Below, piece after piece: positions 14,032-35,679 of a stretch of DNA of 64,000 nucleotides. Within the stretch, counting starts at the first letter, position 1. Every line of letters starts with the position of its first letter. The DNA is taken from NCBI GenBank assembly GCA_045863395.1, contig BTVJ01000026.1:11593-75592 (forward strand), read 5' to 3'. The position numbers and the translations under genes are program-made. The notes under the pieces are model-generated. The model was not told where the DNA came from and ran no database searches. It saw only the letters and a program-made list of their open reading frames with translations. The stretch comes from Myxococcales bacterium (lineage in GTDB: Bacteria > Myxococcota_A > UBA9042 > JABWCM01 > BTVJ01).

Positions 14032-14049
14032 CCAGCGGCTTCAGCAGAC

Positions 14050-15834: not shown

Positions 15835-15900
15835 TCCGCGCCCGTGTGCCTCCGCTGACCCACGCACGTACAAGGCGACCGCCGGAGATCGGGAGAGAGC

Positions 15901-17163: not shown

Positions 17164-17220
17164 GCCGCCCACGGCACTTGGGTCCACATTGGCAGGCCCC
17201 CGGGCGGGGCGGAGGAGAGC

Positions 17221-17628: not shown

Positions 17629-17637
17629 GGCGACGGC

Positions 17638-19127: not shown

Positions 19128-20023
19128 TGGTCCCCCGCTTTGGCCGGCGCGGCTTCACGATGATCGAGATCCTGGTGGCGGTGGGCCTGCTCGCCGTCAT
19201 GACGGCGATCATCTACCAGGCCTACCGCATCACCATCCGTGCGCAGACGGAGACGGACAAGCTCCAGGAGCGCTACCACACGGCGCGGGTCGCGCTGATG
19301 CACATGACCCGTGAGATCTCCATGGCCTTCCTGTCCAAGCACATCAACGCCGACGAGGGGCGCAGCAAGACGCTGTTCGATGGGGGGCGAGAGAAGCTGA
19401 CGTTCACCTACCTCGGGCACCAGCGACGGGTGAAGGACGTCAAGGAGAGCGATCAGGGGGTCGTCGAGTACTACTTGCGCTCGTGCAAGGACAGCGCGCG
19501 GCCCGGCAAGTGCCTGTTCCGGCGGGGGAAGCCCATCGTCGACGCAGACCCGGAGAAGGGCGGCACGGTGGACGTGCTCGCCGAGGGGGTCAAGAGCCTC
19601 AAGTTCGAGTACTGGGACCGCGAGAAGGAGGACTGGAAGAGCGAGTGGGAGGTCAGCAGCGACGACTTCGAGGTGGCGCCCGGGCAGATGCTCGACGAGG
19701 AGATCACCGACGAAGAGAAGTCCATGCAGCTCCCGTGGAGGGTGAAGATCCGACTCGTGCTGGTCGACGACGACAAGGATGAGCACACCTTCGAGACGCA
19801 GACCGCGCTCATGCTGCGGGAGCCTCTGGACTTCACGCTCGGTGGGGTGGTCACCAACCTTCGCGGGGCCCTCGGTGGCCGCGACGGAGGCGCGCAGCCT
19901 GCCGGCGCCGGGTTTGGGATCCCCGGGCAGCCCGGAGTGCCCGGGCAGCCCGTCCAACCGGCTGGCGGTCATGGCGGAGGCGCTCAGCCCCTGGCGGCGC
20001 CCAACCCGGGTGGGGGGCGGTGA
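19127..20023 (+). CDS. gspJ: Type II secretion minor pseudopilin GspJ-like
   Basis: ATG 19127 overlaps the gspI stop. N-terminus GRRG|FTMIEILVAVGLLAVMTAI. Confidence 0.7.
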   Translation: MVPRFGRRGFTMIEILVAVGLLAVMTAIIYQAYRITIRAQTETDKLQERYHTARVALMHMTREISMAFLSKHINADEGRSKTLFDGGREKLTFTYLGHQRRVKDVKESDQGVVEYYLRSCKDSARPGKCLFRRGKPIVDADPEKGGTVDVLAEGVKSLKFEYWDREKEDWKSEWEVSSDDFEVAPGQMLDEEITDEEKSMQLPWRVKIRLVLVDDDKDEHTFETQTALMLREPLDFTLGGVVTNLRGALGGRDGGAQPAGAGFGIPGQPGVPGQPVQPAGGHGGGAQPLAAPNPGGGR

Positions 20024-21270: not shown

Positions 21271-21324
21271 CGGTCAGGCATGCTCGGGCGGGTGCGTGGC
21301 CACGGGCAGCAGGCAGGGCAGGGC

Positions 21325-23502
21325 ATGAGTCAGAGGATCCTCGGGCTGGACATCGGTTCCTCCTCGGTCAAGGCCGTGGTGCTGGAGACGTCGTTCCGGT
21401 CGTTCCAGCTCGTCAGCTTCGCCGAGCGGAGCGTCCGCGACGTCCCGGACGAATCGGAGCGGGACGCACGCAAGGAGGTGCTGCGGCAGATGGTCGCCAC
21501 GGGCGAGGCGCGGGCCGAGGTGGTCATGTGCGCGCTCCCCGGCGACAAGGTCATGAGCCGCATCCTGACGTTGCCGTTCGGTGAGCCCAAGCGCATCGAG
21601 GCGGTGCTCGGCTTCGAGCTGGAGTCCTTCCTGCCCATGGGCGTGGACCAGATGGTCTACGATTACCAGATCCTTCATCGGGGGGAGGACAAGACCACGG
21701 TTCTGGCTGCGGCGGTCCAGCGGACCTTCCTGTCCGAGTTCTTGGAAGACCTGAAGGAGATCGGCCTCGATCCGAAGATCGTCAGCCTGGACTCACTGAG
21801 CTACCTGAACCTCTGGGAGCACCTCAAGCGGACCGCTCCGGGCCCCGTTGCCATCGTCGACGTCGGGGCTCGCACGACGCAGGTGTGCGTCTTGGAGGAC
21901 GGCCGCGCCCAGCTCGTGCGCACCATGCGCGTCGCGGGGGACGCCGTCACGGCGGCGCTCGCGCGGAGCCTGGAGGTGGAGTGGGCCGAGGCGGAGCGCA
22001 TCAAGTGCGACCGGGGGCTGCTGCCGGCGAGCGGCATGGCCCTGTCCCCCGACGACCGGCGCATCGCCGACGCCTGTGCGGAGGGGGTGAAGCCGCTGCT
22101 CCGCGATCTGCGCCAGACGTTCCAGGCGTACCTTGCCCAGTCGGGGCGAGAGGGCATCGGGCGGGTCCTGCTGTGCGGCGGGAGCTCGCGCCTGTTGGGG
22201 GTCCAGGAGCACCTGGAGGAGCAGCTCGGCGTCGACGTGGAGCTGCTCGACGTAGCCTCCACGGACTTCAACAAGCTCGCCGACCCCACGGCGGGCGCCG
22301 GTATCATCCAGAAGGCGTTGGCGCTGTCACTGCGGGCCGTGGGCGGGCGCTCGCACTCGGATCTCAACTTCCGGCAGGGGCCCTACGCCTACCAGGGCGA
22401 CTTCCAGTTCCTGCGGGACAAGACCTTCTACCTGATCGCCCTCGCCTTGATGCTGATGGGCGTCGCGGGCTTCAAGGCATACGCGCGCTATCGCGTCCTC
22501 GATGACCGCCGCCAGGCGCAGGTGGTGGAGCTGGCGAAGTTCTCGAAGGAGGTGCTCGGCAAGGAGCGCGACGACTACGACGCGGTCTTGCGGACCCTCG
22601 GTGACGTGCCGGACGTGGAGGACCTGCGCATCTTCCCCGAGGTGTCTGCGACGCAGGTGTTCTACGACATCACGTCGGCGCTCCAGAGCGTCAACTATAC
22701 GTCGAAGGCGGACCTGGCGCAGGCGGTGGTCGGCGGGAAGGCTGCCTCGCGCCCGGCTGCTGGCGCGCTCCCGGGCGCCGAGGGAGACGAAGGGAGGGCG
22801 CCTGCCCCCATTCGGCCTCCCGGTCCAGCCCAGGCGGACCTGCCGATCAGCGTGGAGGACCGCGCGGCGCGCCTGGAGCGGCTGCGGGAGGCCCGGGATG
22901 CGGCCGAGGCGACGGGGCGCCTCCACACGACGCGTGGGCCGGACCTGGAGCGGCTGCGCGCCGAGCGTCTCCAGCAGCTCCGCGGTGGTCAGGTCGGGAC
23001 CGGGGTCGGCGGCATGGCGGCGCCCGCGCGGGGCGTGGTGCTCCCCCCGACGCCGACGGTGCTTCCGCCCGCTCCGGCGATCCCTGGGGCGAGCGTCCGA
23101 GCCAACCGCGACGCGGTCCGCGTAGCGGAGGAGCCCCGGGGTGCCCTTGCCGCGCCGGGCGCCATGCCGCGCGATGGTGAGGTGCGTCCCGAGGGGGAGG
23201 CGCCGCCGGCAGAGGGCGGCGCGCCTGCGAATGACAACCTCCAGGTGGAGCTGGAGGAGGTCCGCATCGAGGAGTCCTCCGCCTACGTCAAGGGCCAGGC
23301 CAACACCATCGAGGCGCTGGAGCTCTTTGCGCAGCGGCTCGAGGCGCACCGGTGCTTGCGGGACGTGGTGACGGCGGACACGGACAAGGTGACCTTCGCG
23401 CGGCACCAGGGCTGGCTGATGTTCAAGCTGGAGATGGCGCTCGACTGCCGAGACCCGAAGAAGGCAGCGAAGAAGGACAAGAAGACCGGGGAGGCGGAGT
23501 GA
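21325..23502 (+). CDS. gspL: Type II secretion protein GspL-like (actin-like cytoplasmic domain, TM helix, long Pro/Ala-rich periplasmic region)
   Basis: Start at ATG 21325 (MSQRILGLDIGSSSVKAVVLE, an actin/PilM-like fold motif); TM segment FYLIALALMLMGVAGF. Confidence 0.75.
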   Translation: MSQRILGLDIGSSSVKAVVLETSFRSFQLVSFAERSVRDVPDESERDARKEVLRQMVATGEARAEVVMCALPGDKVMSRILTLPFGEPKRIEAVLGFELESFLPMGVDQMVYDYQILHRGEDKTTVLAAAVQRTFLSEFLEDLKEIGLDPKIVSLDSLSYLNLWEHLKRTAPGPVAIVDVGARTTQVCVLEDGRAQLVRTMRVAGDAVTAALARSLEVEWAEAERIKCDRGLLPASGMALSPDDRRIADACAEGVKPLLRDLRQTFQAYLAQSGREGIGRVLLCGGSSRLLGVQEHLEEQLGVDVELLDVASTDFNKLADPTAGAGIIQKALALSLRAVGGRSHSDLNFRQGPYAYQGDFQFLRDKTFYLIALALMLMGVAGFKAYARYRVLDDRRQAQVVELAKFSKEVLGKERDDYDAVLRTLGDVPDVEDLRIFPEVSATQVFYDITSALQSVNYTSKADLAQAVVGGKAASRPAAGALPGAEGDEGRAPAPIRPPGPAQADLPISVEDRAARLERLREARDAAEATGRLHTTRGPDLERLRAERLQQLRGGQVGTGVGGMAAPARGVVLPPTPTVLPPAPAIPGASVRANRDAVRVAEEPRGALAAPGAMPRDGEVRPEGEAPPAEGGAPANDNLQVELEEVRIEESSAYVKGQANTIEALELFAQRLEAHRCLRDVVTADTDKVTFARHQGWLMFKLEMALDCRDPKKAAKKDKKTGEAE

Positions 23503-24146
23503 TGGCGTCCGAGGGAAGGTTCGCCGCATTTGATCGCCTGTCGACCCGCGAGAAGCTGATGGTCGGCGGACTCGGGGCCTTCTTCCTGGTCGGGGTCGTC
23601 CTCGTCGTCGTGTTGGTAGTGAGCAGCTACCTGTCGGGGATCGAGGAGGAGATTGCGGACGCCGAGGAGAAATCCAAGAAGCTCCAGGCGGCGGCCTCGA
23701 CCTACCTGGAGGTGAAGTCCAAGGAGGAGGCCCTGCTCGACCTGCTGCAGAACAACCCCATCGTCAGCCTCCGGATCCCCATCAACAACCTGGCCAAGAG
23801 CGTCACGCTGCCGGACAACACGACCCTGAGCGACGTCATCCGCTTCGAGGGCAAGACGGTGGAGACGCCCATCGCCGCGTTCGGAGACAAGAAGGGCAAG
23901 AAGAAGCCCAAGAAGAAGGGCAAGGGCGAGGAGGACACGGGGCCCCAGACCTTGAAGATCGAGCAGGACTTCGAGTTCCGGGACGTCCCGATCGCGTCGC
24001 TGTTCGACTTTCTGGAGAACATCGAGAAGAGCCCCGACCTGCTGTTCGTGACGAAGCTGGAGATCCGCCGGAAGTTCGGCGACTACGACAAGGCCCAGTC
24101 CGCCTTCGTAACGGTCTCCACGTACAAGCGGACGGGGACGCCATGA
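23502..24146 (+). CDS. gspM: Type II secretion protein GspM-like
   Basis: ATG 23502 overlaps the gspL stop (ATGA). Single N-terminal TM helix (LMVGGLGAFFLVGVVLVVVLVV), about 214 aa, position after gspL. Confidence 0.65.
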   Translation: MASEGRFAAFDRLSTREKLMVGGLGAFFLVGVVLVVVLVVSSYLSGIEEEIADAEEKSKKLQAAASTYLEVKSKEEALLDLLQNNPIVSLRIPINNLAKSVTLPDNTTLSDVIRFEGKTVETPIAAFGDKKGKKKPKKKGKGEEDTGPQTLKIEQDFEFRDVPIASLFDFLENIEKSPDLLFVTKLEIRRKFGDYDKAQSAFVTVSTYKRTGTP

Positions 24147-25879
24147 GCAGCATCTGGAAGACCATCGCCAGGGGCTTCGGCTACCTGATCTTCTTCGTCG
24201 TGGCGCTGGTCTTCTTCGTCTACGTCACCTTCCCCATGGAGCAGGTGCGCGGCTACGTGGAGTACCAGGCGCAGAAGCGCCTGAAGATGGACGTCCGAAT
24301 CGGCGAGCTGGCGCTGAAGGGCCTCGGTGGGGTGGAGCTCTGGGACGTCGTCGTCGTGCTCCCCGAGAAGCCGAAGGAGCCGTCGGCGGCGGAGGAGGCG
24401 GGTGTGACGCGCCCCGGCGGCCCGGCGACCGAGGCGCCGCCAGCCGCTCCGAGGGCGCCGGCCGCGGCGAAGCCGGTCGATGCCGCCAAGGCGGGCGCTA
24501 CGCCCAAGGCGCCCCCCAAGGCGCTCCCCAAGGATGCCGCCGCTTCCGAGGGAGACGCCAAGACGGACAAGAAGCCCAAGGGCCTGCGGGTGAAGATCGA
24601 CCACGTGGACGTCAGCGTCAGTCTCCTCGACGTGCTCTTCGGCAAGGAGCCGGACGTGCGCATCGACGCGGAGCTGCTGGGCGGGTCCATCTCGGACGCT
24701 CACGTCAGGAAGGATGGAAAGAAGATCCGCATCGAGGCCAAGGAGGTGAGCGGCCTCGATCTCACCGCGACGCCGCTGCTCGGCTACGTCGGTCCCTTCG
24801 ACGTGCGGGGCAAGCTGTCCGGGAGCATCGACTTCACCTGGGGCGGGAGCCTGTGGGACAGCGCAGGCACCATCGAGCTGGCCCTGGCCCAGTCGTCCAT
24901 CCGCCAGCCGGAGCTCAAGTCCAAGGCGTACGGGGACTTCAAGCTCACGGACGTCAAGACCGGCGCCCTCGCCGTGAAGGTGGCGGTCGGGAAGAAGGCG
25001 GACATCGCGACGCTGCGCGCGGCCCCCGGCCCCAAGGACGCCACGGTCGTTCACCTGGAGAAGGTGGAGTCGAGCGGCGAAGACGCGGAGCTGGTCACCG
25101 AGGAGCGGAGCGTGTTCGTGCTGCGCAAGGGCAAGCCGTTTGGAGACGCGTCCATGACCGTGGAGATCGCCTTCGCCCTGTCGGAGCCCTTCTTCGAGCG
25201 GGAGGTGGTGCGCCAGGGGGAGAAGGAGAAGCCCAACAAGTTCCTGAAGTACCTCCTCGAGCACGACGCCAAGTGGAAGAAGGCAGAGAAGAACGGGTTC
25301 TATGGCCTCCGGTGCACCGGCGTGGTCAAGCGGCCCGAGTGCCTCCCGGTGCGGCCCACGATGCGCGTGGGCTTTGCGAAGGCGCGCACCGATGGCGGAG
25401 AGGAGCCCGCCAAGGACGCCCCCGAGAAGGGCGACGCGTTGGACACGAAGCGTCCCGAGACGCCGGCGCCGAGCGCCCGCGGGGACCAGCGGGAGCCGGG
25501 GGCGCGACCGACGCTGGGGACGGTGCAGGACCTGCCGCGGGAGCGCCCGACCCAGGTCGAGGCGGAGCCCGTGGATGAAGGGCCGCAGCCGAAGGTGCCG
25601 CGCATCCGCACGCCGGCGACCGGCGTCGACCCCAAGGTGCGCATCGAGCAGCTCAAGGCGGAGCGGGAGCAGCGGCTGCAGGAGATGCGCGCCGCCCGGG
25701 GGCTGCCCCCGGAGCCCGTAGCCGAGCCTCTGCCCGAGGACGCGCCGCTGCCTCTGGACGAGGAGCTGGTCGACGAGGTGCCACTGGACGAAGTGCCTCT
25801 GGATGACGCTCCCCACGTGGAGGGAGCCATCGACGAGCTGCCCTTGGACGAAGACCCCAACTTCGACCCGGACCGCTGA
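24143..25879 (+). CDS. gspN: Type II secretion protein GspN-like with long Pro/Ala/Lys/Glu-rich insert
   Basis: ATG 24143 overlaps the gspM stop. N-terminal TM helix (GYLIFFVVALVFFVYVTF); last gene of the operon. Confidence 0.6.
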   Translation: MSSIWKTIARGFGYLIFFVVALVFFVYVTFPMEQVRGYVEYQAQKRLKMDVRIGELALKGLGGVELWDVVVVLPEKPKEPSAAEEAGVTRPGGPATEAPPAAPRAPAAAKPVDAAKAGATPKAPPKALPKDAAASEGDAKTDKKPKGLRVKIDHVDVSVSLLDVLFGKEPDVRIDAELLGGSISDAHVRKDGKKIRIEAKEVSGLDLTATPLLGYVGPFDVRGKLSGSIDFTWGGSLWDSAGTIELALAQSSIRQPELKSKAYGDFKLTDVKTGALAVKVAVGKKADIATLRAAPGPKDATVVHLEKVESSGEDAELVTEERSVFVLRKGKPFGDASMTVEIAFALSEPFFEREVVRQGEKEKPNKFLKYLLEHDAKWKKAEKNGFYGLRCTGVVKRPECLPVRPTMRVGFAKARTDGGEEPAKDAPEKGDALDTKRPETPAPSARGDQREPGARPTLGTVQDLPRERPTQVEAEPVDEGPQPKVPRIRTPATGVDPKVRIEQLKAEREQRLQEMRAARGLPPEPVAEPLPEDAPLPLDEELVDEVPLDEVPLDDAPHVEGAIDELPLDEDPNFDPDR

Positions 25880-25888
25880 TCAGGGTCC

Positions 25889-26653
25889 TCAGGGCTTGCG
25901 GTCGTGCCGCACTGTCCCGTCTGTCTCCGTCGCGCCTTGACCCGAGCGGGCGAACTCCCGGCGGTGCACTGCCTCCACCTCCACCGTCCCCGTCTCCAGA
26001 TCGAAGTGGAGCTGACGCACCGCGTGTGACGCGATGGCGAGCAGCGGGGTGCCGTCCAGCGCCTCGGTGCGCGTCGTCGAGCGCACGTCGGCCTCGATGA
26101 CGCCCAGCGTGCGCTCGCCTGCGTTGAGCGTGCCCAGGAAGGTGACCGTCTCCGACTGCTTGCCGGTCGTCTTCGTGCCGTCTCCGCCCAGCCGGACGAC
26201 GGGGTTCTCGCTCGACCAGCTCTCGCCCGGAGCGAGCGCCCGCTTGGGCGCGTCGAGGGCCGTCTTGTCCAGGCGGTAGTCCTGGAGCAGGGCCCGCTTC
26301 GCGTCGTCGGCGAGAGGCTGAGGCTTGCCGTCGAGGGTGGCCTTCGCATCCATGGACACGACCTTCCAGGACAGCGAGCCGTCGGGCCCCTTGGCGATCT
26401 CGGAGGTGGCGTTCGCCGTGACCGCCCACACCTGGTGGGACGGCTGGAGGCGCGTGACCGTGCCCGTGAGCTGTGTCGCGTAGCTGCCGTGCAGTGGGAA
26501 CCGAGGGGACGGGACCACGAGCGGGGAGCCGGAGGTGACCAGGCCGGCGGGGGGCGGGAGCGACGCGTCCAGCTCGGAAGGGGAGGGCACCTTCAGGGTC
26601 GCGCAGGCGCCCAGAAGCGCGCACGCGACGAGCGCCGGGAGTGCGCGAAGCAT
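25889..26653 (-). CDS. Lipoprotein, function unknown
   Basis: AAGGAG RBS; N-terminus MLRALPALVACALLGAC (lipobox L-G-A-C). Downstream of the Cys-rich lipoprotein gene on the same strand. Confidence 0.6.
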   Translation of the reverse strand: MLRALPALVACALLGACATLKVPSPSELDASLPPPAGLVTSGSPLVVPSPRFPLHGSYATQLTGTVTRLQPSHQVWAVTANATSEIAKGPDGSLSWKVVSMDAKATLDGKPQPLADDAKRALLQDYRLDKTALDAPKRALAPGESWSSENPVVRLGGDGTKTTGKQSETVTFLGTLNAGERTLGVIEADVRSTTRTEALDGTPLLAIASHAVRQLHFDLETGTVEVEAVHRREFARSGQGATETDGTVRHDRKP

Positions 26654-26674: not shown

Positions 26675-27625
26675 CTACTGGCCGCCGCAGTACTTCTTGC
26701 CGGCGTTGTTTTCGTTGCAGCTCGTGTAGTCGGGCGAGATGGTCTTGCAGCCGTCCAGGCCGCCAAGTCCGGTGGAGCTGTCGCAGCGGATTGCGCAGTG
26801 GTCGATCTGGCCCTTGCTGCCCTCCGGCTTCACGCACGTGAAGTACAGCTTGGCGGCCGGGTCGTCGTCCTTGGAGCACTCGGGCGTGAATCCCGGACAG
26901 CCTCCGCACCGCTTCGCGCACACCTTGAACTTGCCACCGGTGACGTTGGGGTTGGTGTCCGTGCACAGCCCGTGGATGCAGTCACCGTTCTCCTGGCAAG
27001 GCTCGCCCGGGAGCAGGCCGTCAGGGTTCGGCGCGTCTTCGGTGTTGTAGCAGCCCGCGCCCGGGTTCACGGGCGTGACGCCGCCGTCGCCCCCGGACGC
27101 ATCGGACCCACCCCCGCCCGACCCGTCCCCTCCTCCGCTGCCGCTGCCGTCCGCGCCGCCCCCGTTGAGCGCGCTGTTCACGCAGATCTTGCTGGCTCCG
27201 ATCCCGACGTTCTTGCACGCGTCGTAGCCGAGCTGCGCCTTGGTGCAATCTGAATCGGAGGTGCAGGAGATGACGCACCGCCGGAGCTGCTGCCCCAGGT
27301 CGTTCTTGTAGGGCAGGCACGTGTAGAACACCCCCTCCGCCTCGAGATCCAGGGTCTTGCACTCGATGGGCAGGGGGCACACGCCGGAGCACGAGCGGAT
27401 GCAGATCTTCTTCGTCGGAGACGCGAACTTGTCGGTGCCGCAGACATTGCTCTGGCACTCCTCGTTCTTCTCGCACGGCACGCCGGCGACCTTGCCCGAC
27501 TCCTGGGGGGCGGGTGAGTCGCAGTAGTCGGCCGTCCCCCCGCCCGACGAGCTGTCACACGCAGCGCTCGGCCCGAGCAGCGCGAAGGCGGCCACGGCGA
27601 GGGCCCAGGTGCAGGTTGGCTTCAT
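26675..27625 (-). CDS. Cys-rich lipoprotein with two tandem Cys-rich domains separated by a Gly/Ser/Asp linker
   Basis: True start is the ATG at 27625 (GGAGAT RBS; MKPTCTWALAVAAFALLGPSAAC, lipobox S-A-A-C). The 824-aa track ORF 26675..29149 is real only in this 3' third; the rest is antisense to the CorC gene. Confidence 0.7.
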   Translation of the reverse strand: MKPTCTWALAVAAFALLGPSAACDSSSGGGTADYCDSPAPQESGKVAGVPCEKNEECQSNVCGTDKFASPTKKICIRSCSGVCPLPIECKTLDLEAEGVFYTCLPYKNDLGQQLRRCVISCTSDSDCTKAQLGYDACKNVGIGASKICVNSALNGGGADGSGSGGGDGSGGGGSDASGGDGGVTPVNPGAGCYNTEDAPNPDGLLPGEPCQENGDCIHGLCTDTNPNVTGGKFKVCAKRCGGCPGFTPECSKDDDPAAKLYFTCVKPEGSKGQIDHCAIRCDSSTGLGGLDGCKTISPDYTSCNENNAGKKYCGGQ

Positions 27626-27754: not shown

Positions 27755-29140
27755 GTGCGAGCGAACGACCTGCGCTATCATCGCGGCTCGCGTGCCTCGA
27801 AGGTCCTCAGGAGTGCATCGGGCTTGGAGCCTCCCAACGAAGCCATACTGATCGCCATTCTGATCGTCCTCTCGTCCCTCTTCTCCGGCTCGGAGACGGC
27901 GCTCACCTCGTTTGGGGAGACGCGCATCGCCCGCATGTTGGAGACGCTCAAGGCGAAGGGACGCCGGCACCGCATCCTGGAGCTGTGGCACACGAACCCG
28001 AACCGCGTGCTCACCGCCGTCCTCGTCGGCAACAACCTCGTGAACATCGCCGCGTCCGCCCTCGCGACGGACCTCAGCTACCAGCTCGTGACCGGGGGCG
28101 ACCCGGGGCACGGGGGGGAGGCCGCCCTCGCCCTCGCCGTGGGCGTCATGACCTTTGTCACGCTGGTGTTCGGCGAGATCGTCCCCAAGACCTTCGCCAA
28201 GCACAACCCGGAGCGCTTCGTGGGGCTCCTGCACGTCCTGACCTTCTTCTACTGGCTCCTCTACGTGCCGACCGTGATCCTGGAGCGCCTCTCGCGCTTC
28301 ATGGTGCACATGGTCGGCGGGTCGGTGGCGAAGGAGGGGCCGTCCGTCACCGACGAGGACATCGAGGACCTGATCAAGCTCGGCGGGCGCGAGGGCGCCT
28401 TCGACGAGCACAAGGGGGAGCTGCTCAACAGCGTGCTCGACTTCGCGGACACCCTCGTCCGGGAGGTGCTCGTCCCGCGCACCGACGTCATCGGCTTCGA
28501 GGTCAACGACCCCTTCGAGAAGGTGGTCGCCGTCACCAAGGAGCAGCAGTTCTCGCGCTACCCCGTCTACGAGGAGACCGTGGATCACATCGTCGGGGTG
28601 TTCCACGTCAAGGACATGCTGGACAAGCTCGAGGGCGACCAGATTACGCAGTTCAACCTGCGGGACCTGATGCGGGCCCCCATCTACGTGCCGGAGACGA
28701 AGCGCATCAGCGAGCTGATGCGGGAGCTCCAGCGTAACAAGGTCCACCTGGCGGTCGTGGTGGACGAGTTTGGAGGGACCGCGGGCATCGTGACCATCGA
28801 GGACATCATCGAGGAGATCTTCGGAGAGATCTACGATGAGACCGACGACGAGGAGGAGCCCGAGATCCAGGAGATGCCCGACGGGACGTGGGTCGCGGAC
28901 GCGCGCATGAGCATCAAGGACCTGGAAGACATGATGGGCCTCGACTTCCCGGACGAGTCGGACTACGAGACACTCGGTGGCTTCATCATCATGCACGCGG
29001 GCAAGGTGCCGGAGGTCAGCGAGGTGGTGCGCTGGAATGGGCTCCTCTTCACCGTGGCCGATGGTGACAGCACCAGGGTGTCCCGCGTCGTGATCTCTCG
29101 CTACGAGGGCGAGGGCAGCGGAGCCGATCCTACCGTTTGA
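27755..29140 (+). CDS. CNNM/CorC/HlyC-family membrane protein (DUF21 transmembrane + CBS pair + CorC_HlyC)
   Basis: N-terminal TM region (NEAILIAILIVLSSLFSGSETALTS), CBS-pair region, C-terminal transporter-associated domain (IEEIFGEIYDETDDEE…). Exact start uncertain. Confidence 0.9.
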   Translation: MRANDLRYHRGSRASKVLRSASGLEPPNEAILIAILIVLSSLFSGSETALTSFGETRIARMLETLKAKGRRHRILELWHTNPNRVLTAVLVGNNLVNIAASALATDLSYQLVTGGDPGHGGEAALALAVGVMTFVTLVFGEIVPKTFAKHNPERFVGLLHVLTFFYWLLYVPTVILERLSRFMVHMVGGSVAKEGPSVTDEDIEDLIKLGGREGAFDEHKGELLNSVLDFADTLVREVLVPRTDVIGFEVNDPFEKVVAVTKEQQFSRYPVYEETVDHIVGVFHVKDMLDKLEGDQITQFNLRDLMRAPIYVPETKRISELMRELQRNKVHLAVVVDEFGGTAGIVTIEDIIEEIFGEIYDETDDEEEPEIQEMPDGTWVADARMSIKDLEDMMGLDFPDESDYETLGGFIIMHAGKVPEVSEVVRWNGLLFTVADGDSTRVSRVVISRYEGEGSGADPTV

Positions 29141-29277
29141 CAGGTCCACGGCTCAAGGGTAACATCGCGCGCCGGCTTTCCGGAAGGGCCCGATCCGTCA
29201 AGAGCAGCGCCGGTCTTCGGCGCGCGGAGCGGCACGGGACAGCAAGGCCGGAAAGCACACCCGAGATGGAGGCTCTC

Positions 29278-31218
29278 ATGAAGGCGATGACGAAAAGGAG
29301 CGTGGTGCGTTGGTGCCTCGCGGCCCTTCTGACCGCGGCATTGGCGGTCGGTGGATGCAAGAAGGACCCGCCCGCCGCGCCTGCCGAGGCGCCCAAGGCG
29401 GGGGAGACCAAGGCGCCTGAGAAGGGCGGTGAGGCCAAGGCCCCCGAGAAGGGCGGCGAGGCCAAGGCCCCCGAGAAGGGCGGCGAGGCCAAGGCCCCCG
29501 AGAAGGCCCCTGACAAGGCCGGCGACGAGCGCCCCGCGGTGCCCGCCACGGTGTCGGTCCCCGATGGAGTGATCCTCTACGGTGGCATCAAGAGCCTCGA
29601 CGATCTGACCGCCCGCATCTCATCCGTCGTCGACAAGGTCAAGCCCATGCCCGGTCTGGGCATGGTGATCACCGGCGCCCTGAGCAAGGAGCTCGGCCTG
29701 TCGAGCATGGACTGGCTCGACACGTCCAAGCCCGCGCGCTTCGCGGTGTGGAACCCGAAGGAGGGCGGCCAGCCGCTGGTGATGGCCTTCCCCATGAAGT
29801 CACGGGAGGCTTTCGAGAAGGCGCTCCCGGAGGCGCGCGAGTCGGGAGCCGAGGGCAACGCGTTCAAGTACCAGGCTGGCATGAAGGACGCCTTCGTGAA
29901 CTTCGCCGGGGACTACGCGCTCCTGGCCCGGGACGCCAAGGCGTATGACCGCCTCAAGGGCTTCGCCGAGGGTGGCCTTGCGGCCTACAAGCCCAACGAC
30001 GCCTTCGAGATCACCATCGCGGTGGGCAACCTGACCCGCATCTTCAGCGACGAGCTCAAGCAGGCTCGCGGCGAGATGGCGAAGCTGATGGCCAGCGACA
30101 TGGCCATGTCACCCTTCGCCGGCTCGGCGGCGAGCATGAACACGCAGATCGATCTGATGTTCGACCTGCTCGACCAGCTCGACCAGGCGACCATCTCTGC
30201 CCGCATCGACGGTGACCACGTCAAGATGCCGTTCGCGCTGAAGGCGAAGGACGGCTCCTCCATGGCGAAGTTCTTCGACGCGACCCGCGACCGCAAGCTG
30301 ACGCTGCTCGACTACGTGCCTGCCGGCTCCTACCTGGTGGTCGGGGCGAGCATGGACCCCGCGGGCTTCGGCGAGTGGAACGAGCTCGGCATGAAGATGA
30401 TCGCGGAGATGTTCAAGCTGACCGGCGAGGAGAAGGCCAAGCTCGACACGCTCATGAAGGGCGCCATGGCGGCGCAGACGGGCGAGTCGGTCTTCGCGCT
30501 CTACAAGGACGGCGCCCTGGCCCTGTCCATGCTCGCGGTCGGCGGTGCGACGGACGGCAAGAAGCTCCGTGACCTGTCCTACGAGATGTATGGCATGCTC
30601 TGGACCAAGGTCGTCGACCTGATCAAGGCCGAGGCCGGCGCCGAGCTGCCCCCGGAGTTCGACCTGTCGAGCTTCAGCAAGGCCATCGAGAGCCTGGCCG
30701 CCGTCGCGGAGCCCCTCGGCGTCACCGTGAAGGTGGCGACCGAGGAGTACAACGGCGCCACCATCGACAGCATCGCGATCACTATCGACTATGCGCGGTT
30801 CCCCCTGGCTCAGGAGGACGCCGAGGCTGCCGCGGTCATGAAGGCCATCGTCGGCGACAAGATCGTGCTTGCGGCAGGCTACGGCAAGGAGCGCTACGGC
30901 ATGGCCATGGGCCCCGACGCGGTCGCGCGGGTCAAGGACGTCGTCGACGGCAAGAAGGGCGCCACGCCGGTCGCCATCAAAACCGCCGTGGAGCACGGGG
31001 TGCCCGGGGCGTCCATGCTGTTCTACCTGTCCGCGGTGGACGGCCTCAAGGCGTTCGCGGCCCTGCCCCAGCTCCAGCCCATGAGCGACACCATCCGCGG
31101 CATGTCTGCGGCGAGCGGCGCGGCGTTCAGCTTCGGCTCGGCGAGCGGCGGTGGCCTGTCCGCGGTCATCGACGTGCCGATGAGCCACGTGCAAGAGGTC
31201 CTGAAGCTCCAGCGCTAG
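29278..31218 (+). CDS. Lipoprotein with KAPEKGGEA tandem repeats, function unknown
   Basis: GGAGG 8 nt before ATG 29278; MKAMTKRSVVRWCLAALLTAALAVGGC (lipobox V-G-G-C). Confidence 0.65.
   Translation: MKAMTKRSVVRWCLAALLTAALAVGGCKKDPPAAPAEAPKAGETKAPEKGGEAKAPEKGGEAKAPEKGGEAKAPEKAPDKAGDERPAVPATVSVPDGVILYGGIKSLDDLTARISSVVDKVKPMPGLGMVITGALSKELGLSSMDWLDTSKPARFAVWNPKEGGQPLVMAFPMKSREAFEKALPEARESGAEGNAFKYQAGMKDAFVNFAGDYALLARDAKAYDRLKGFAEGGLAAYKPNDAFEITIAVGNLTRIFSDELKQARGEMAKLMASDMAMSPFAGSAASMNTQIDLMFDLLDQLDQATISARIDGDHVKMPFALKAKDGSSMAKFFDATRDRKLTLLDYVPAGSYLVVGASMDPAGFGEWNELGMKMIAEMFKLTGEEKAKLDTLMKGAMAAQTGESVFALYKDGALALSMLAVGGATDGKKLRDLSYEMYGMLWTKVVDLIKAEAGAELPPEFDLSSFSKAIESLAAVAEPLGVTVKVATEEYNGATIDSIAITIDYARFPLAQEDAEAAAVMKAIVGDKIVLAAGYGKERYGMAMGPDAVARVKDVVDGKKGATPVAIKTAVEHGVPGASMLFYLSAVDGLKAFAALPQLQPMSDTIRGMSAASGAAFSFGSASGGGLSAVIDVPMSHVQEVLKLQR
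29410..29508 (+). repeat. 27-bp tandem repeat, 3 full copies plus 1 partial, in frame (KAPEKGGEA) inside the lipoprotein gene
   Basis: aaggcgcctgagaagggcggtgaggcc followed by two near-identical copies and a truncated copy. Confidence 0.9.
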
Positions 31219-32074
31219 CCCGCCCCGCCCACCAGACGACCCCCGCCCCGACCAGGGCGGCCAGCGCCACCCACTGGGAGGTCGAGAGCGGCCCCCAGTG
31301 ACCCCGCTGGGCATCCCCCCGAAGCAGCTCGATGAGAAACCGGGCCGTCGCGTACAGGGCGACCCACGCCGCGAGCACCTCGCCGTGGAAGCGCTTGTTC
31401 GCGCGCACGCGCAGGAGCAGGCCGAACAGCAGCAGCTCCACGGCCGCCTCGTAGAGCTGTGTCGGGTGGATCGGGCCTCCGAGGAGCCAGGCCTCCGAGC
31501 CAGGCGGGAACGTCACGCCCCAGGGGAGGTCGGTCCTACAGCCGTAGCAGCAGCCCGCCAGGTAGCACCCGATGCGTCCGAAGACGTGGGCGAGGGCGAC
31601 GCTCGGGACGAGGGTGTCCGAGAGCAGCCCGAAGCCTGCCCGGTGCCGCAGTGAGAAGCGCCACAGGACCAGGGCAGCCGCCGCGACCCCGCCGTAGAAC
31701 ACGAAGCCGCCTCGCCACAGCTCCAGGGCAGCAGTGCAGTTCCGGACGGTCGCGCAGGTGCCGGCGTCGCAGACCTGCAGGTCGGGGCATGCCCCGAGCG
31801 GCGTGCATGGGATTGAGGGCAGCGCATCTTGCGGGTCGAAGCACAGGTCGTAGAAGAACTCCCATCGAACGGCCAGGAACGCGAGGCGCGAGCCGACGAT
31901 GGCGGCCATCATCAGCCAGAACATCAGGTCGATGACCGCCCCGCGGTCGAGGCCGACGCGCGGCGCCTCCCGGCCCGCCACGGAGAGGGCCGCCAGGTAG
32001 CCGAGAGCGATCATCACGCCGTAGGCGGGGAGGACGATCCCGATGCCCGTACCCGCAAGCAGGTCAGGGTGCAT
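31166..32074 (-). CDS. lgt: Prolipoprotein diacylglyceryl transferase Lgt
   Basis: Lgt signature motifs GRIGCYLAGCCYG and HPTQLYEA. Start taken at ATG 32074 (MHPDLLAGTGIGIVLPAYG). Carries a Cys-rich insert (CFDPQDALPSIPCTPLGACPDLQVCDAGTCATVRNC). 3' end overlaps the convergent lipoprotein gene by about 50 nt. Confidence 0.85.
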   Translation of the reverse strand: MHPDLLAGTGIGIVLPAYGVMIALGYLAALSVAGREAPRVGLDRGAVIDLMFWLMMAAIVGSRLAFLAVRWEFFYDLCFDPQDALPSIPCTPLGACPDLQVCDAGTCATVRNCTAALELWRGGFVFYGGVAAAALVLWRFSLRHRAGFGLLSDTLVPSVALAHVFGRIGCYLAGCCYGCRTDLPWGVTFPPGSEAWLLGGPIHPTQLYEAAVELLLFGLLLRVRANKRFHGEVLAAWVALYATARFLIELLRGDAQRGHWGPLSTSQWVALAALVGAGVVWWAGRASAGASGPLARGSSARR

Positions 32075-32193
32075 GGGGGCGACCGGGGGGCCCGGACACG
32101 TCGGGGTGGGAGACGGGGCGGACACTCCGGGCCAGGCGCATGTGCCATGGGTTGGGCAGGTGTCTCACGCCGGGAGAGGACAGCATCTGCGGC

Positions 32194-33231
32194 TCACACG
32201 CCCGTGCGCGCCACCTCGGGCTTCTCGGCCTCGCGGAACAAGGTGCTGTTCTTCTTCAAGAGCATCTCGTAGAGGAGGAAGCCGACCCCGACGGTGATGC
32301 CGATGTCCGCGATGTTGTAGGTGGGCCAGTGGGTGTTGCCCACGTAGTTGTCGATGAAGTCGATGACGTAGTTGAAGCGCATGCGGTCGATGAAGTTGCC
32401 GATGGCTCCCCCGAGGATCGCCGAGAAGGCGACGGTCGCCAGGCGCTGGTTGGGCTCCAGCCGCACCACGACGACGAGGATCACGACCGCCGCAATGAGG
32501 GAGACCAGGCCGAAGAACGTCTGGCGGAAGGTCCCATGGGCCTGGGCGAGGAAGCTCCATGCTGCGCCCGGATTCTCCGCGTAGATGAGCTGGAAGAAGC
32601 CGGGGATCACGGTGAGCTTCCGCTGCGCGAGCAGGTACAGGTCGCCCTCGTTCACCTGACGATCCGCGGTGAGGCCCTGGTTGCGCGGCGGGACGGGGTA
32701 CGTGAACTCGGCCGCCACTCGCCCGGCGTCCGATGCGGAGAGGTAGGGGACCCGATCCACTAGGAAGTCCGCCAGCTTCACGTCGGACAGCACCGCCGCC
32801 ACCGCCGCCTGGCGGTCGGAGTCTGCCACGTCCGGCCGGGCAAAGGCGAGCCAGCGCTCGGCGAGGACGTGGTCCTGTCGCAGCACGCGGCGTGGCGGCA
32901 GCTCCAGGGACGAGCGAGCGAAGACGTAGTAGCCGGGCGCCCGCGCCGCGGGGTCGGTGAACACCTTGGTCTCCCCGGTCAGGCCCTTCGGGGCTGTCAG
33001 GAGCAGGACGTCCTCTGCGATGGCGGCAGACAGCGCCTCGCCGGTCAGCTCCGGGAACCGCGCCGACAGGACCGCGCCGAGCGTGCTGCCTGCCTCGCCG
33101 CTCGAGATGACGATGGGAAGAGGGTGCTCGCCGTTGGCCAGGCTCGTCTCGGCCCAGACCTTCGTCCATTGATCCAGGCCGACGGTCACTGCGACGACGA
33201 GGACCAGGGTGACGTACTTCTTTGTGTTCAT
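32194..33231 (-). CDS. lspA: Lipoprotein signal peptidase II (LspA) with a roughly 165-aa insertion after TM1
   Basis: N-terminus MNTKKYVTLVLVVAVTVGLDQWTKVW, then core motifs FFQLIYAENPGAAWSFL, GGAIGNFIDR, VIDFID, WPTYNIADIGITVG. Total 345 aa versus roughly 160-200 aa typical (from memory). Confidence 0.8.
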   Translation of the reverse strand: MNTKKYVTLVLVVAVTVGLDQWTKVWAETSLANGEHPLPIVISSGEAGSTLGAVLSARFPELTGEALSAAIAEDVLLLTAPKGLTGETKVFTDPAARAPGYYVFARSSLELPPRRVLRQDHVLAERWLAFARPDVADSDRQAAVAAVLSDVKLADFLVDRVPYLSASDAGRVAAEFTYPVPPRNQGLTADRQVNEGDLYLLAQRKLTVIPGFFQLIYAENPGAAWSFLAQAHGTFRQTFFGLVSLIAAVVILVVVVRLEPNQRLATVAFSAILGGAIGNFIDRMRFNYVIDFIDNYVGNTHWPTYNIADIGITVGVGFLLYEMLLKKNSTLFREAEKPEVARTGV

Positions 33232-33312: not shown

Positions 33313-33927
33313 TCACCGCGGCGGCGAGGTCTCGGCGCGGATCCTCTCCATGAGCTCCGAGTAGGACGTGTTCTCGACGATGGTGGCGATCTGGATCTGG
33401 TAGCGCTCCAGCAGGTCGGACCGCCCGCGGCGCCGGGCGTCGTCGAGCGCCTTGTGGAGCGTGATGAAGGCGCGCTCCGTGTTCACGAAGTACTCCACTC
33501 CCATCAGGGTCACGATCATGGCGCTGCCCGTGATGCTGCGCGACGAGTGGCTGAACTCGAAGGTCCGGCCCCGGGAGTTCTGCAGGCCCAGCACGACGGC
33601 GCCCACGGCATCGCTGCCCGCCCTCTCACGACGGGTGTCCAGCCGCGCCTCCACACGGAAGGTCGAGAACTGGATGCTGTTCAGCGAAGGGTACCGCTTG
33701 CCCAGCTCCTTCTGGAGGGCGTGGAAGACGGCATCGACGAAGCCCACGCCTTCTCCCCTGATCTCCAGCTGCGTCTTGGTCGGGTGCTTGTGCAGGGAGC
33801 AGGAGACGGTGCACTTGCCCGTGTCCACGTCCTCCTCCAGCACGAAGCGGTCGACGCGCAGGTCGAGGTACTGGTCTCCCAGCACCTCGCGGACGAGCTG
33901 CACTGTGGCCTCCATGGCTTGGTTCAT
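33313..33927 (-). CDS. Hypothetical cytoplasmic protein (possible small regulatory alpha/beta domain)
   Basis: AGGAGG RBS before ATG 33927 (MNQAMEATVQLVREVL…); balanced composition; no confident family. Confidence 0.55.
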   Translation of the reverse strand: MNQAMEATVQLVREVLGDQYLDLRVDRFVLEEDVDTGKCTVSCSLHKHPTKTQLEIRGEGVGFVDAVFHALQKELGKRYPSLNSIQFSTFRVEARLDTRRERAGSDAVGAVVLGLQNSRGRTFEFSHSSRSITGSAMIVTLMGVEYFVNTERAFITLHKALDDARRRGRSDLLERYQIQIATIVENTSYSELMERIRAETSPPR

Positions 33928-34279
33928 GGGGTGTTCCTCCTGGCTGTCAGGGATGCGAGAGCGAGCTGGGTGGCACCCGCCGTGGGGGGTGCCTGGTGCC
34001 CGTCGCGGAGTCGGCACAGTCACGCGGGCACGAGCCCGCACCGATCAACAGTAGCACAACGGTGGAGCGCCGGCTGTGAATTCCTGGTTCGTAAATGAGG
34101 CCACGCGCTGGCCGCCCAGACGTGGGGGAGGGCGCTCCCGACCAGCAACCACGGCGTTTTGTTGACGATTCTGGGGGATTCTGCTAGAGCGAGGGGCGCA
34201 CGTCGTGTTCCGTGCAGTTCCCGGCAATGCCTGCGCGAGCCCTCGGGTACCGGTTGCGGCAGGCGCCACAGGAGATCGC

Positions 34280-34627
34280 ATGCTGAGGTCCACGCCGATC
34301 CGTCTTCTCCGCGCTGCCCTGGTGGGTTGCCTGCTGGCCTTGGCGGCCTGCGGCCCCATCCAGTCGGCGCAGGCGATCCGGGAGGGGCAGAAGTCGCTCG
34401 AGACGGCGCGCCTCGCCGAGGCGGAGCAGCTTGCTCCCTACCACTTCCATCGGGCACTCGCGTACCTGGAGATGGCCAAGCGGAAGTCGGGCTTCTCGGA
34501 GTTCGAGGTCTCACAGGAGTACGCCAAGGTCGCCAAGGTGGCGGCTGACCAGGCGGTGGTCAACGCCAGGAAGCGCCAGGCGCTCAAGCTCATCCTGGAG
34601 CAGCGTCGCCTCAAGGGGGCCCCATGA
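34280..34627 (+). CDS. Small lipoprotein (DUF4398-like; this family is often found upstream of OmpA-family genes)
   Basis: GGAGA RBS; MLRSTPIRLLRAALVGCLLALAAC (lipobox L-A-A-C); stop overlaps the ATG of the next gene (ATGA). Confidence 0.55.
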   Translation: MLRSTPIRLLRAALVGCLLALAACGPIQSAQAIREGQKSLETARLAEAEQLAPYHFHRALAYLEMAKRKSGFSEFEVSQEYAKVAKVAADQAVVNARKRQALKLILEQRRLKGAP

Positions 34628-35679
34628 GCCGCAAGCTCATTGCCTGCGCAGTGGTGTGCGTCGTTGGCGCGCTCTCCCTCGCCGGCTGTGCGACGACCGG
34701 TGACGTCCGGGCCCGCACCGACGAGATCGAGACCTTGCTGCACAAGATCCACGGGCCTGCCTCGGTGTGCATGCCCAAGCAGCTCGCCTGGTCCGAGCTG
34801 ATGGTCGACGTCTCGCGCTACGAGTCGGATCGGGGCGAGACCGTGCTGGCTGACATCCACATGCGCGAGGCATCGGACCTCGCCGCCGAGGCATGGAAGG
34901 GGTCGCGTGGCCCCGAGTGCGAGGTGGACACGGACTTCGACGGCATCGTGGACTCGAAGGACGAGTGCATCAACGACCCAGAAGACTATGACGGCATGGA
35001 GGACGAGGACGGCTGCCCGGAGGAGGACCGCGACGGCGACGGCATCTCGGATCGGCGCGACCGCTGCCCCGATCAGCCCGAGGACCGGGACGGCTGGCAG
35101 GACGAGGACGGCTGCCCCGACCCGGACAACGACGGCGACGGCATCCTCGACGGGAAGGACCAGTGCCCCAACGAGCCCGAGGACAAGGACGGCTGGCAGG
35201 ACGAGGACGGCTGCCCCGACCCGGACAACGATGGGGACGGGATCCCGGACCTCCAGGACCAGTGCCCGAATGAGGCGGGCGACAAGGCCAACAACGGGTG
35301 CCCGAACCGGTACAAGGACATCGAGATCGAGGGCGACCAGATCAAGCTGAAGAAGAAGGTCTTCTTCGCGACGAACAAGGCGACCATCATGCCCCAGTCC
35401 TTTGACATGCTGGGCGAGATCGCCGACGTCCTGATCAAGAACCCCAAGTGGGTCGTGCGGGTCGAGGGGCACACGGACAGCCGAGGCAATGACTCGTACA
35501 ACAAGAAGCTGTCGCAGAAGCGCTCCGAGTCCGTGCGCGCGCACCTCATCGGGCGCGGGGTCAACCCGCAGGCCATGATCGCCATCGGCTACGGCGAGGA
35601 GCAGCCCATCGGTGACAACAACACCGAGGAGGGCCGCGACATCAACCGCCGCGTCGAGTTCCACATCATCGCGAAGTAA
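34624..35679 (+). CDS. OmpA-family lipoprotein with thrombospondin type-3 calcium-binding repeats
   Basis: Lipobox L-A-G-C; repeated DxDGDGIxD / DEDGCPD motifs; C-terminal OmpA domain (KVFFATNKATIMPQSFDMLGEIADVL…GHTDSRGNDSYNKKLSQKRSESV). Confidence 0.9.
   Translation: MSRKLIACAVVCVVGALSLAGCATTGDVRARTDEIETLLHKIHGPASVCMPKQLAWSELMVDVSRYESDRGETVLADIHMREASDLAAEAWKGSRGPECEVDTDFDGIVDSKDECINDPEDYDGMEDEDGCPEEDRDGDGISDRRDRCPDQPEDRDGWQDEDGCPDPDNDGDGILDGKDQCPNEPEDKDGWQDEDGCPDPDNDGDGIPDLQDQCPNEAGDKANNGCPNRYKDIEIEGDQIKLKKKVFFATNKATIMPQSFDMLGEIADVLIKNPKWVVRVEGHTDSRGNDSYNKKLSQKRSESVRAHLIGRGVNPQAMIAIGYGEEQPIGDNNTEEGRDINRRVEFHIIAK

What the first reader, a model, noticed from the sequence alone, without database searches (positions are those of the whole stretch)
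31166..33231. Adjacent lgt and lspA, with a roughly 165-aa insertion in LspA and a Cys-rich insert in Lgt
The first two enzymes of lipoprotein maturation sit side by side. The LspA homologue is about twice the usual length because of an insertion after TM1, and Lgt has a Cys-rich periplasmic insert. In a genome this rich in lipoproteins, and in a lineage where LspA paralogues are linked to antibiotic resistance (from memory), the atypical LspA deserves attention.
Basis: partly seen in the sequence, partly recalled or inferred. Interest (0 to 1): 0.5.

Follow-up and report, generated by a model that had tools for sequence, protein, structure and literature searches.

The report
Double-length LspA with periplasmic insert
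An uncultured myxobacterium encodes an apparently functional lipoprotein signal peptidase (LspA) that carries a well-folded, roughly 170-residue extra domain outside the membrane, a rare lineage-specific variant of unknown function that I did not find described, next to an Lgt whose cysteine-rich loop is typical of the lineage.

Summary
On the minus strand, lspA (32194-33231, 345 aa) is followed after 119 nt by lgt (31166-32074, 302 aa).

- The insert is not an artefact. More than 60 homologues of 310-368 aa carry it, and it evolves under purifying selection.
- It models with high confidence (pLDDT about 95) as two duplicated ~50-residue two-helix-plus-strand modules (weakly S4/LysM-like), with a hairpin and a helical pair between them.
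- A profile of the insert, searched against 1.84 billion representative proteins, found essentially only long LspAs from uncultured Myxococcota. It matches no Pfam family and has no close PDB fold match.

**Context.** The lspA-lgt pairing is the ordinary housekeeping arrangement in Myxococcota. The window holds no antibiotic gene cluster, so the suggested link to resistance is unsupported. The six-Cys loop in Lgt is lineage-typical. It accompanied the long LspA in nearly all loci I could score.

**Verdict.** This is a new variant of a known enzyme. I infer, but have not shown, that the insert extends the substrate platform. Moderate interest.

The parts
32194..33231 (-). lspA coding sequence (345 aa plus stop): lipoprotein signal peptidase II, long form
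33142..33231 (-). LspA residues 1-30: short cytoplasmic N-terminus (MNTKKY) and TM1, with the conserved D20 and K24
   Evidence: Helix 3-30 in the model. D20 and K24 are invariant in 43 homologues. The motif LDQWTK corresponds to LDQVSK in P. aeruginosa LspA.
32617..33141 (-). LspA residues 31-205: inserted periplasmic domain of about 170 aa
   Evidence: Not covered by PF01252. Modelled alone at pLDDT 94.9. No Pfam family. No hydrophobic segment. dN/dS 0.22-0.33. A profile of the insert finds 63 proteins among 1.84 billion, nearly all of them long LspAs.
32962..33108 (-). Insert module 1 (about residues 42-90): two helices and a strand
   Evidence: DSSP H51-58, H64-73, E75-78. Aligns to module 2 by hhalign over 49 columns, probability 77%, E 2e-5.
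32788..32937 (-). Insert linker (about residues 99-148): beta-hairpin with the conserved GYYVF and PPRR motifs (P113 nearly invariant), then a helical pair
   Evidence: DSSP E100-103, E114-117, H120-131, H137-148. Conservation from alignment A1. The helical pair is missing in the shorter inserts with about 160-residue spacing.
32629..32784 (-). Insert module 2 (about residues 150-201): two helices and strands, ending in V-x-x-G-D-x-Y-L-L
32242..32616 (-). LspA residues 206-330: beta-cradle, extracytoplasmic loop and TM2-TM4, with the catalytic dyad D291 (32359-32361) and D309 (32305-32307)
   Evidence: phmmer alignment to 5dir/9emz over residues 203-329. N220, G275, N279, R283, V289, D291, N306, A308 and D309 are invariant in 43 homologues, and G222 is conserved in 42 of 43. 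The conserved-residue list comes from PMC6952399.
32075..32193 (-). 119-nt spacer between lspA and lgt. Close relatives carry an additional lgt gene (lgt1) at this position.
   Evidence: Sequence read. No terminator-like site. Relatives have lspA-lgt(311 aa)-lgt(300 aa).
31166..32074 (-). lgt coding sequence (302 aa plus stop, from the ATG at 32074): prolipoprotein diacylglyceryl transferase family
   Evidence: Pfam PF01790 E 2.5e-51. 100% identical to NCBI AMXMBFR64_29660. Called as 302 aa on other contigs.
31736..31843 (-). Cys-rich insert in Lgt (C78-C113 in 302-aa numbering, six Cys), between TM2 and the W-x-G-G motif
   Evidence: Alignment A2 against E. coli Lgt and homologues. The segment is 55 aa with 6 Cys, against 21 aa with 0 Cys in E. 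coli. The same pattern recurs in many Myxococcota Lgt proteins.

Best explanation
This is the housekeeping-type lspA-lgt gene pair of an uncultured Myxococcota bacterium.

**Shown or strongly supported**
- The LspA is a complete and probably active aspartyl signal peptidase II. It has four transmembrane helices, a beta-cradle and the catalytic dyad D291/D309.
- A soluble, independently folding domain of about 170 residues is inserted between TM1 and the first cradle strand.
- The domain is built from two duplicated ~50-residue two-helix-plus-strand modules, joined by a beta-hairpin and a helical pair.

**Inferred from LspA topology**
- TM1 runs from the cytoplasm outwards, so the insert lies in the periplasm.
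- It is attached to the edge of the beta-cradle. Structural work proposes that this platform holds the part of a prolipoprotein just C-terminal to the cleavage site.

**Proposed function (inference only)**
- The insert enlarges this extracytoplasmic platform. It would help to dock or orient the mature part of diacylglyceryl-prolipoproteins, or their hand-over from Lgt or onward to later steps.
- It does not change the catalytic chemistry.

**Lgt**
- The six-Cys loop in Lgt is a lineage-typical periplasmic mini-domain, probably stabilised by disulfides.
For: **Enzyme identity**
- Searches give the family and structure-sequence matches.
- The 14 conserved LspA residues listed in PMC6952399 map to D20, K24, N220, G222, G275, N279, D282, R283, V289, D291, Y305, N306, A308 and D309.
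- The only change in the window protein is a conservative Phe-to-Tyr at position 305. Across the 43 homologues, D282 is Asp in 33.

**The insert is real and under constraint**
- 71 homologues were found, most of them 310-368 aa with full-length coverage.
- 43 of them were aligned; H36 and P113 in the insert are nearly invariant.
- dN/dS is 0.22-0.33 for the insert and 0.17-0.37 for the core.
- pLDDT is 94.9 for the insert alone, and pTM is 0.85 for the whole protein.
- The insert has no hydrophobic segment.
- The two halves align to each other: hhalign, 49 columns, probability 77%, E 2e-5.

**The insert is exclusive to LspA**
- The profile search found 63 hits among 1.84 billion representatives. 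Almost all place the domain at residues 30-210 of proteins 310-365 aa long.

**Housekeeping position**
- lspA lies immediately upstream of lgt in most related loci, in both long and short forms.
- The same arrangement holds for M. xanthus lspA1/2-lgt (PMC8689077).
- There is no terminator between the two genes here.

**Role of the beta-cradle**
- PMC6952399.
Against: - The function of the insert is pure inference. I had no access to the model coordinates, so I could not check how close the conserved insert residues (H36, P113, the PPRR motif) come to the active site or the cradle surface.
- Canonical LspAs work without any such domain.
- I could not establish that this is the only lspA in the genome.
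- The dN/dS values are rough, because GC3 is very high.
Confidence: 0.5

Rival explanations
1. **Partner-docking domain.** The LspA insert and the Cys-rich Lgt loop are periplasmic interaction surfaces. They would hold Lgt and LspA, or LspA and Lnt/Lol components, together so that substrates are channelled between consecutive steps.
For: - The two genes are adjacent.
- In nearly all of the roughly 37 loci with a long LspA and a neighbouring lgt, that Lgt has a 54-72-aa six-Cys segment. The two loci that differ look like parsing failures.
- Loci with a short LspA have Lgt with either 20-21 aa and no Cys, or 60 aa and four Cys.
Against: - The co-occurrence may simply reflect shared ancestry within one clade.
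- About a third of long-form loci have no adjacent lgt.
- A Cys-rich Lgt loop also occurs alongside short LspAs.
- No complex prediction could be run.
Confidence: 0.15
2. **Resistance paralogue.** The long LspA would be a self-protection or intrinsic-resistance variant against LspA inhibitors such as myxovirescin, with the insert shielding the binding pocket.
For: - M. xanthus carries extra lspA copies inside the myxovirescin cluster (PMC8689077).
- Myxovirescin binds partly under the beta-cradle (PMC6952399), which is where the insert is attached.
Against: - The gene is in the housekeeping lspA-lgt position.
- No PKS/NRPS or other antibiotic cluster occurs anywhere in the 64-kb window.
- All conserved residues that contact the antibiotics are unchanged.
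- From my own reading of the LspA structures, the inhibitors approach the pocket from the membrane, which a periplasmic cap would not block.
Confidence: 0.1
3. **Cell-wall anchor.** The modules would act like LysM domains and bind peptidoglycan or another envelope glycan, positioning LspA relative to the wall.
Against: - No LysM match appears in Pfam for any of the 29 inserts, even at E up to 1.
- By my own recollection of the two family patterns, the G-D-x-hydrophobic strand that closes each module fits the S4/RCK_C pattern rather than LysM.
Confidence: 0.08
4. **Tolerated decoration.** The TM1-to-cradle loop would simply be a permissive site that has accumulated a stable domain with no specific role.
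For: The spacing at this site varies continuously across Myxococcota LspAs: 36, 48-61, 73, about 160, 180-206, 225 and 243 residues.
Against: - Purifying selection on the insert is comparable to that on the core.
- H36 and P113 are nearly invariant.
- The domain is retained across homologues down to about 31% identity.
Confidence: 0.1
5. **Annotation artefact.** The extra length would come from a mis-called start, a frameshift, or a fusion with a neighbouring gene.
For: None found.
Against: - It is a single uninterrupted ORF with TM1 before the insert and the catalytic core after it.
- The identical protein occurs on seven independent contigs.
- More than 60 homologues share the architecture.
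Confidence: 0.01

Closest known systems
Lipoprotein signal peptidase II (LspA, peptidase family A8), e.g. P. aeruginosa LspA (PDB 5DIR) and S. aureus LspA (6RYO/6RYP)
   Same: - Four transmembrane helices, the beta-cradle and the extracytoplasmic loop with its conserved Trp.
- The catalytic Asp dyad and the other conserved residues.
- The same predicted chemistry.
   Different: - About 167 extra residues form a folded periplasmic domain between TM1 and the first cradle strand.
- Total length is 345 aa, against 157-188 aa for the solved LspA chains.
- F-to-Y at the conserved Phe position.
M. xanthus housekeeping operon lspA1-lspA2-lgt, and the myxovirescin-cluster copies lspA3/lspA4
   Same: - lspA lies directly upstream of lgt in a member of the Myxococcota (PMC8689077).
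- Related loci of the Myxococcaceae type show tandem short lspA genes followed by lgt.
   Different: - There is a single long lspA here, not two short tandem copies.
- ileS is not adjacent.
- The gene is not in a biosynthetic cluster.
- Myxococcaceae-type LspAs have only about 60 residues between the TM1 and cradle motifs.
S4 (alpha-L) RNA-binding domain, as in RsuA, RluD, Hsp15 and ribosomal protein uS4
   Different: - No sequence-level match.
- The location is periplasmic, where there is no RNA.
- The scores are low, and LysM and RCK_C domains score almost as well.
E. coli Lgt (PDB 5AZB)
   Same: - A Pfam LGT family member.
- Residues equivalent to E. coli Y26, R143, G154, R239 and E243 are conserved (alignment A2).
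   Different: - A 34-residue six-Cys insertion between TM2 and the W-x-G-G motif.
- The region between the signature motif and the HPTQLYE motif is shorter than in E. coli.
- The signature motif reads GRIGCYLAGCCYGC, not GRLGNFINGELWGR. This Cys variant is itself widespread.

Membership tests
LspA / signal peptidase II (Pfam PF01252, TIGR00077) | Profile score above the curated cut-off | tested here: met
   PF01252 scores 127.8 bits against a cut-off of 25. TIGR00077 scores 118.9 against 73.95.
LspA / signal peptidase II (Pfam PF01252, TIGR00077) | Catalytic aspartate dyad (D124/D143 in P. aeruginosa; D118/D136 in S. aureus) | tested here: met
   D291 (VIDF) and D309 (NIAD) are invariant in 43 homologues. 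The dyad is defined in PMC6952399.
LspA / signal peptidase II (Pfam PF01252, TIGR00077) | The other 12 highly conserved residues around the active site | tested here: met
   D20, K24, N220, G222, G275, N279, D282, R283, V289, N306 and A308 are present. The conserved Phe is Tyr305.
LspA / signal peptidase II (Pfam PF01252, TIGR00077) | Four-TM fold with a beta-cradle | tested here: met
LspA / signal peptidase II (Pfam PF01252, TIGR00077) | Cleavage of diacylglyceryl-prolipoproteins, and inhibition by globomycin or myxovirescin | not testable with these tools
   Needs a biochemical assay or a complementation experiment.
Antibiotic-cluster LspA paralogue (M. xanthus lspA3/lspA4 type) | Located inside or next to a biosynthetic gene cluster for an LspA inhibitor | tested here: not met
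   Pfam scans of the main ORFs across the window found no PKS or NRPS genes. They found a type II secretion cluster, regulators and housekeeping enzymes.
Antibiotic-cluster LspA paralogue (M. xanthus lspA3/lspA4 type) | An additional copy beside a housekeeping lspA in the same genome | not testable with these tools
   There is no second lspA in the 64-kb window. The rest of the genome is not available, and the genome collection holds no close relative (best 47% identity).
Lgt (Pfam PF01790, TIGR00544) | Pfam family score above the cut-off | tested here: met
   174.7 bits against 24.9.
Lgt (Pfam PF01790, TIGR00544) | NCBIfam equivalog cut-offs | tested here: not met
   TIGR00544 scores 96 against 118.9. 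NF000778 scores 175.8 against 334. The protein is a divergent family member.
Lgt (Pfam PF01790, TIGR00544) | E. coli-type signature G-R-x-G-N-F-x-N-G-E-x-x-G, plus Y26, R239 and E243 | tested here: inconclusive
   - The equivalents of Y26, R143, G154, R239 and E243 are conserved.
- N146 and E151 are replaced by Cys (GRIGCYLAGCCYGC).
- This Cys variant is present in at least 90% of the 18 aligned sequences. It looks like a common subfamily signature rather than a defect.
S4 domain (PF01479) for the insert modules | Sequence profile match or strong fold match | tested here: inconclusive
LysM (PF01476) / TrkA_C (PF02080) for the insert modules | Sequence profile match or strong fold match | tested here: not met

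The most novel reading that the evidence does not exclude
The LspA insert and the co-occurring six-Cys periplasmic loop of Lgt would be matching docking surfaces. These Myxococcota would then assemble a physical Lgt-LspA lipoprotein-maturation complex that passes substrates directly from one enzyme to the next. As far as I know, this organisation has not been described for the pathway in any bacterium.
Probability: 0.1. Interest if true: 0.7.

Novelty: new variant of a known kind. Interest (0 to 1): 0.4.

Why it matters
LspA is an essential enzyme and a validated antibiotic target. All structural and mechanistic work so far treats it as a minimal membrane enzyme of 150-200 residues.

A whole clade in which LspA carries a conserved, folded periplasmic domain at the edge of its substrate platform suggests an added layer. 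That layer could be substrate selection or coupling to partner proteins, in bacteria that make very many lipoproteins. The domain also has no recognisable relatives outside LspA.

If the insert turns out to bind substrates or Lgt, it would give a handle on a step that remains poorly understood: how prolipoproteins are handed between the maturation enzymes. If it has no such role, this remains a modest lineage-specific curiosity.

Tried and rejected
1. **Artefact or frameshift fusion.** Rejected.
2. **Pfam scan of 29 insert sequences at E up to 1.** It gave only marginal TrkA_C hits in 3 of 29 and nothing for the window's own insert.
4. **AlphaFold-database fold libraries.** Not available, so structural relatives among predicted proteins were not searched.
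5. **The one non-LspA hit of the insert profile.** P0239 is a BlaR1/M56 protein with eight weak repeated matches at E 1e-4. I dismissed it as marginal helical-repeat similarity.
6. **Looking for a second, short lspA from the same lineage.** I looked up the short homologues P0063 and P0070. Both came from other organisms with an ileS-lspA-lspA-lgt arrangement.
7. **A second lspA or lgt within the window.** None found.
8. **Xiao & Wall 2014.** Not held in the library. I relied on a review's account of it.
9. **Three literature searches.** None returned a description of an LspA with an inserted domain.
10. **Promoter and terminator scan.** Nothing found around the gene pair.


Full report
**What is there.** The window has about 69% G+C.
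- Its Lgt is 100% identical to an NCBI protein from a Myxococcales metagenome-assembled genome, AMXMBFR64_29660.
- Close relatives sit in ENA bins labelled Myxococcota JABWCM01.
- On the minus strand, lspA (32194-33231, 345 aa) is followed by a 119-nt spacer with no terminator-like site, and then by lgt.
- The lgt ORF can be read from 32125. The ATG at 32074 gives the 302-aa product that NCBI and independent contigs call.
- Both ORFs have the high third-position G+C of real genes in this genome, 0.92 and 0.87.
- Both have strong family matches: Peptidase_A8 at E 4.7e-37 and LGT at E 2.5e-51.

**LspA is complete and probably active.**
- The Pfam match covers only residues 203-324.
- The first 30 residues form a helix carrying the TM1 motif LDQWTK. 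P. aeruginosa LspA reads LDQVSK at this position.
- The 14 highly conserved residues that surround the active site in the solved structures (PMC6952399) map to D20, K24, N220, G222, G275, N279, D282, R283, V289, D291, Y305, N306, A308 and D309.
- In the window protein the only change is Phe to Tyr at position 305.
- The catalytic pair D291/D309 is invariant in 43 homologues.
- An AlphaFold2 model built on those homologues has mean pLDDT 91.6 and pTM 0.85.

**The insert is real.**
- The distance from the TM1 Asp to the Y-x-E-N-x-G-A-A-W motif is 197 residues. It is 30 in P. aeruginosa, so about 167 residues are extra.
- The insertion lies inside one ORF, between parts of the enzyme that are both needed. 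This rules out a wrong start codon or a fusion with a neighbour.
- The identical protein is found on seven independent contigs.
- A homology search returned 71 relatives, most of them 310-368 aa and covering the full query.
- A scan of one genome per species found the long form in dozens of uncultured Myxococcota MAGs, with a best identity of 47%.
- Nei-Gojobori dN/dS against two relatives is 0.22-0.33 for the insert and 0.17-0.37 for the core. The insert is therefore under similar constraint, although these values are rough at such high GC3.
- H36, just after TM1, and P113, in an L-P-P-R-R motif, are each conserved in 42 of 43 sequences.

**What the insert looks like.**
- Modelled on its own from 29 sequences, it reaches pLDDT 94.9.
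- It has no hydrophobic segment.
- It contains two similar units of a short strand, two helices and a strand, at about residues 42-90 and 144-193. A beta-hairpin and a helical pair separate them.
- Profile-profile alignment of the two halves matches these units over 49 columns at probability 77% and E 2e-5, which points to an internal duplication.
- The shorter variants, with about 160-residue spacing, lack the helical pair but keep both units.
- No Pfam family matches the insert.
- Foldseek finds nothing below E 0.8.
- The AlphaFold-database libraries were unavailable.
- A profile of the insert, searched against 1.84 billion representative proteins, found 63 hits. Nearly all place the domain at residues 30-210 of proteins 310-365 aa long, which are long LspAs or fragments of them. 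The one outlier is a marginal repeat match in a BlaR1-type protein.
- On this evidence the domain is specific to LspA.

**Context.**
- lspA directly upstream of lgt is the rule in the 80 related loci, for long and short forms alike. Some loci have two tandem lgt genes. Loci of the Myxococcaceae and Archangium type have two tandem short lspA genes before lgt. This matches the M. xanthus housekeeping operon lspA1-lspA2-lgt described in PMC8689077.
- The closest relatives of this window have lspA-lgt1-lgt2. The window keeps only the lgt2 orthologue.
- The window has no second lspA or lgt.
- It contains no PKS, NRPS or other antibiotic cluster. One side holds a type II secretion cluster, and the other holds sugar-nucleotide and central-metabolism genes.
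- The resistance-paralogue idea therefore has no support here. The genome-wide copy number could not be checked.

**Lgt.**
- The segment between TM2 and the W-x-G-G motif is 55 aa with six Cys, against 21 aa with none in E. coli.
- By homology to the E. coli structure this segment is periplasmic, so three disulfides are plausible. This is an inference.
- The same pattern is widespread in the related loci, as 54-72 aa with six Cys.
- It was present in nearly all of the roughly 37 loci with a long LspA and an adjacent lgt.
- Loci with a short LspA had either 20-21 aa with no Cys or 60 aa with four Cys.
- This co-occurrence could reflect shared ancestry or a functional link.
- The signature motif reads GRIGCYLAGCCYGC, with Cys where E. 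coli has N146 and E151. At least 90% of the 18 aligned sequences share this, so it is a common subfamily feature.
- The protein falls below the NCBIfam equivalog cut-offs.

**How it probably works.**
- The catalytic part should act as any LspA does.
- The insert leaves the membrane at the end of TM1 and re-enters the enzyme at the first cradle strand. It therefore sits in the periplasm beside the beta-cradle.
- That surface is proposed to hold the residues just after the cleavage site (PMC6952399).
- My best reading is that the insert enlarges this platform and helps to bind or orient the mature part of prolipoproteins. A second possibility is docking to Lgt or another partner.
- Shielding against antibiotics, peptidoglycan binding and a neutral decoration are less likely but not excluded.
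- None of these functions has been tested.

**Novelty.** Three full-text searches returned no description of an LspA with an inserted domain. I rate this a new variant of a known enzyme, of moderate interest.

Noticed in passing
window 32075-32193; L085 7047-8874; L087 7040-8870: The closest relatives have two tandem lgt genes after lspA, of 311-313 aa and 299-300 aa. The window has only the orthologue of the second one, and a 119-nt spacer where the first would be. This suggests a recent loss of one lgt copy.
   Followed up: partly
window 33313-33927 (-), about 204 aa from MNQAMEATV: A small protein with a weak match to the LeuA allosteric/dimerisation domain (E 4.9e-5, just below the cut-off). 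It is conserved directly upstream of the long lspA in relatives (L001, L007, L085, L087). Its function is unknown.
   Followed up: partly
window 25889-26653 (-), 26675-27625 (-), 29137-31218 (+), 34205-34627 (+), 34624-35679 (+): Five flanking genes encode proteins with signal peptides ending in a lipobox-like Cys (LGAC, SAAC, VGGC, LAAC, LAGC), so predicted LspA substrates surround the gene pair. One (26675-27625) is a 316-aa Cys-rich, Gly/Ser-linked two-part protein with no Pfam match. Another is an OmpA-family protein with thrombospondin type 3 repeats, paired with a DUF4398 protein.
   Followed up: partly
window about 10200-25900 (+): A complete type II secretion-like cluster: a PDZ protein, GspD secretin (980 aa), GspE, GspF, pseudopilins, GspJ, GspK, a 740-aa PilM/GspL-like protein and GspM. 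A sigma-54 response regulator precedes it at 8376-9854.
   Followed up: no
L060, L061, L067, L068, L071, L074 (lspA ORFs): In MAGs labelled Polyangiales or Myxococcaceae, a shorter LspA carries a PPPLC-x-PPPG loop, and a Cys replaces the Pro of the ENPGAAW motif (AENCGGAW). This may be a periplasmic disulfide next to the active-site loop. These LspAs are paired with an Lgt that has a four-Cys 60-aa loop.
   Followed up: no
window 31166-32074 (-), Lgt residues 166-179: The Lgt signature motif is GRIGCYLAGCCYGC, with Cys at the positions of E. coli N146 and E151, which I recall being reported as functionally important. At least 90% of the aligned homologues share this. A large Lgt subfamily therefore uses a different signature from the E. 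coli model enzyme.
   Followed up: partly
L036 and L039 (lspA at 6001-7104); L030 and L033: Some marine and lake Myxococcota MAGs have even longer LspA inserts, with 225-243 residues between the TM1 and cradle motifs. The TM1-to-cradle junction appears to be a hot spot for expansion in this phylum.
   Followed up: no
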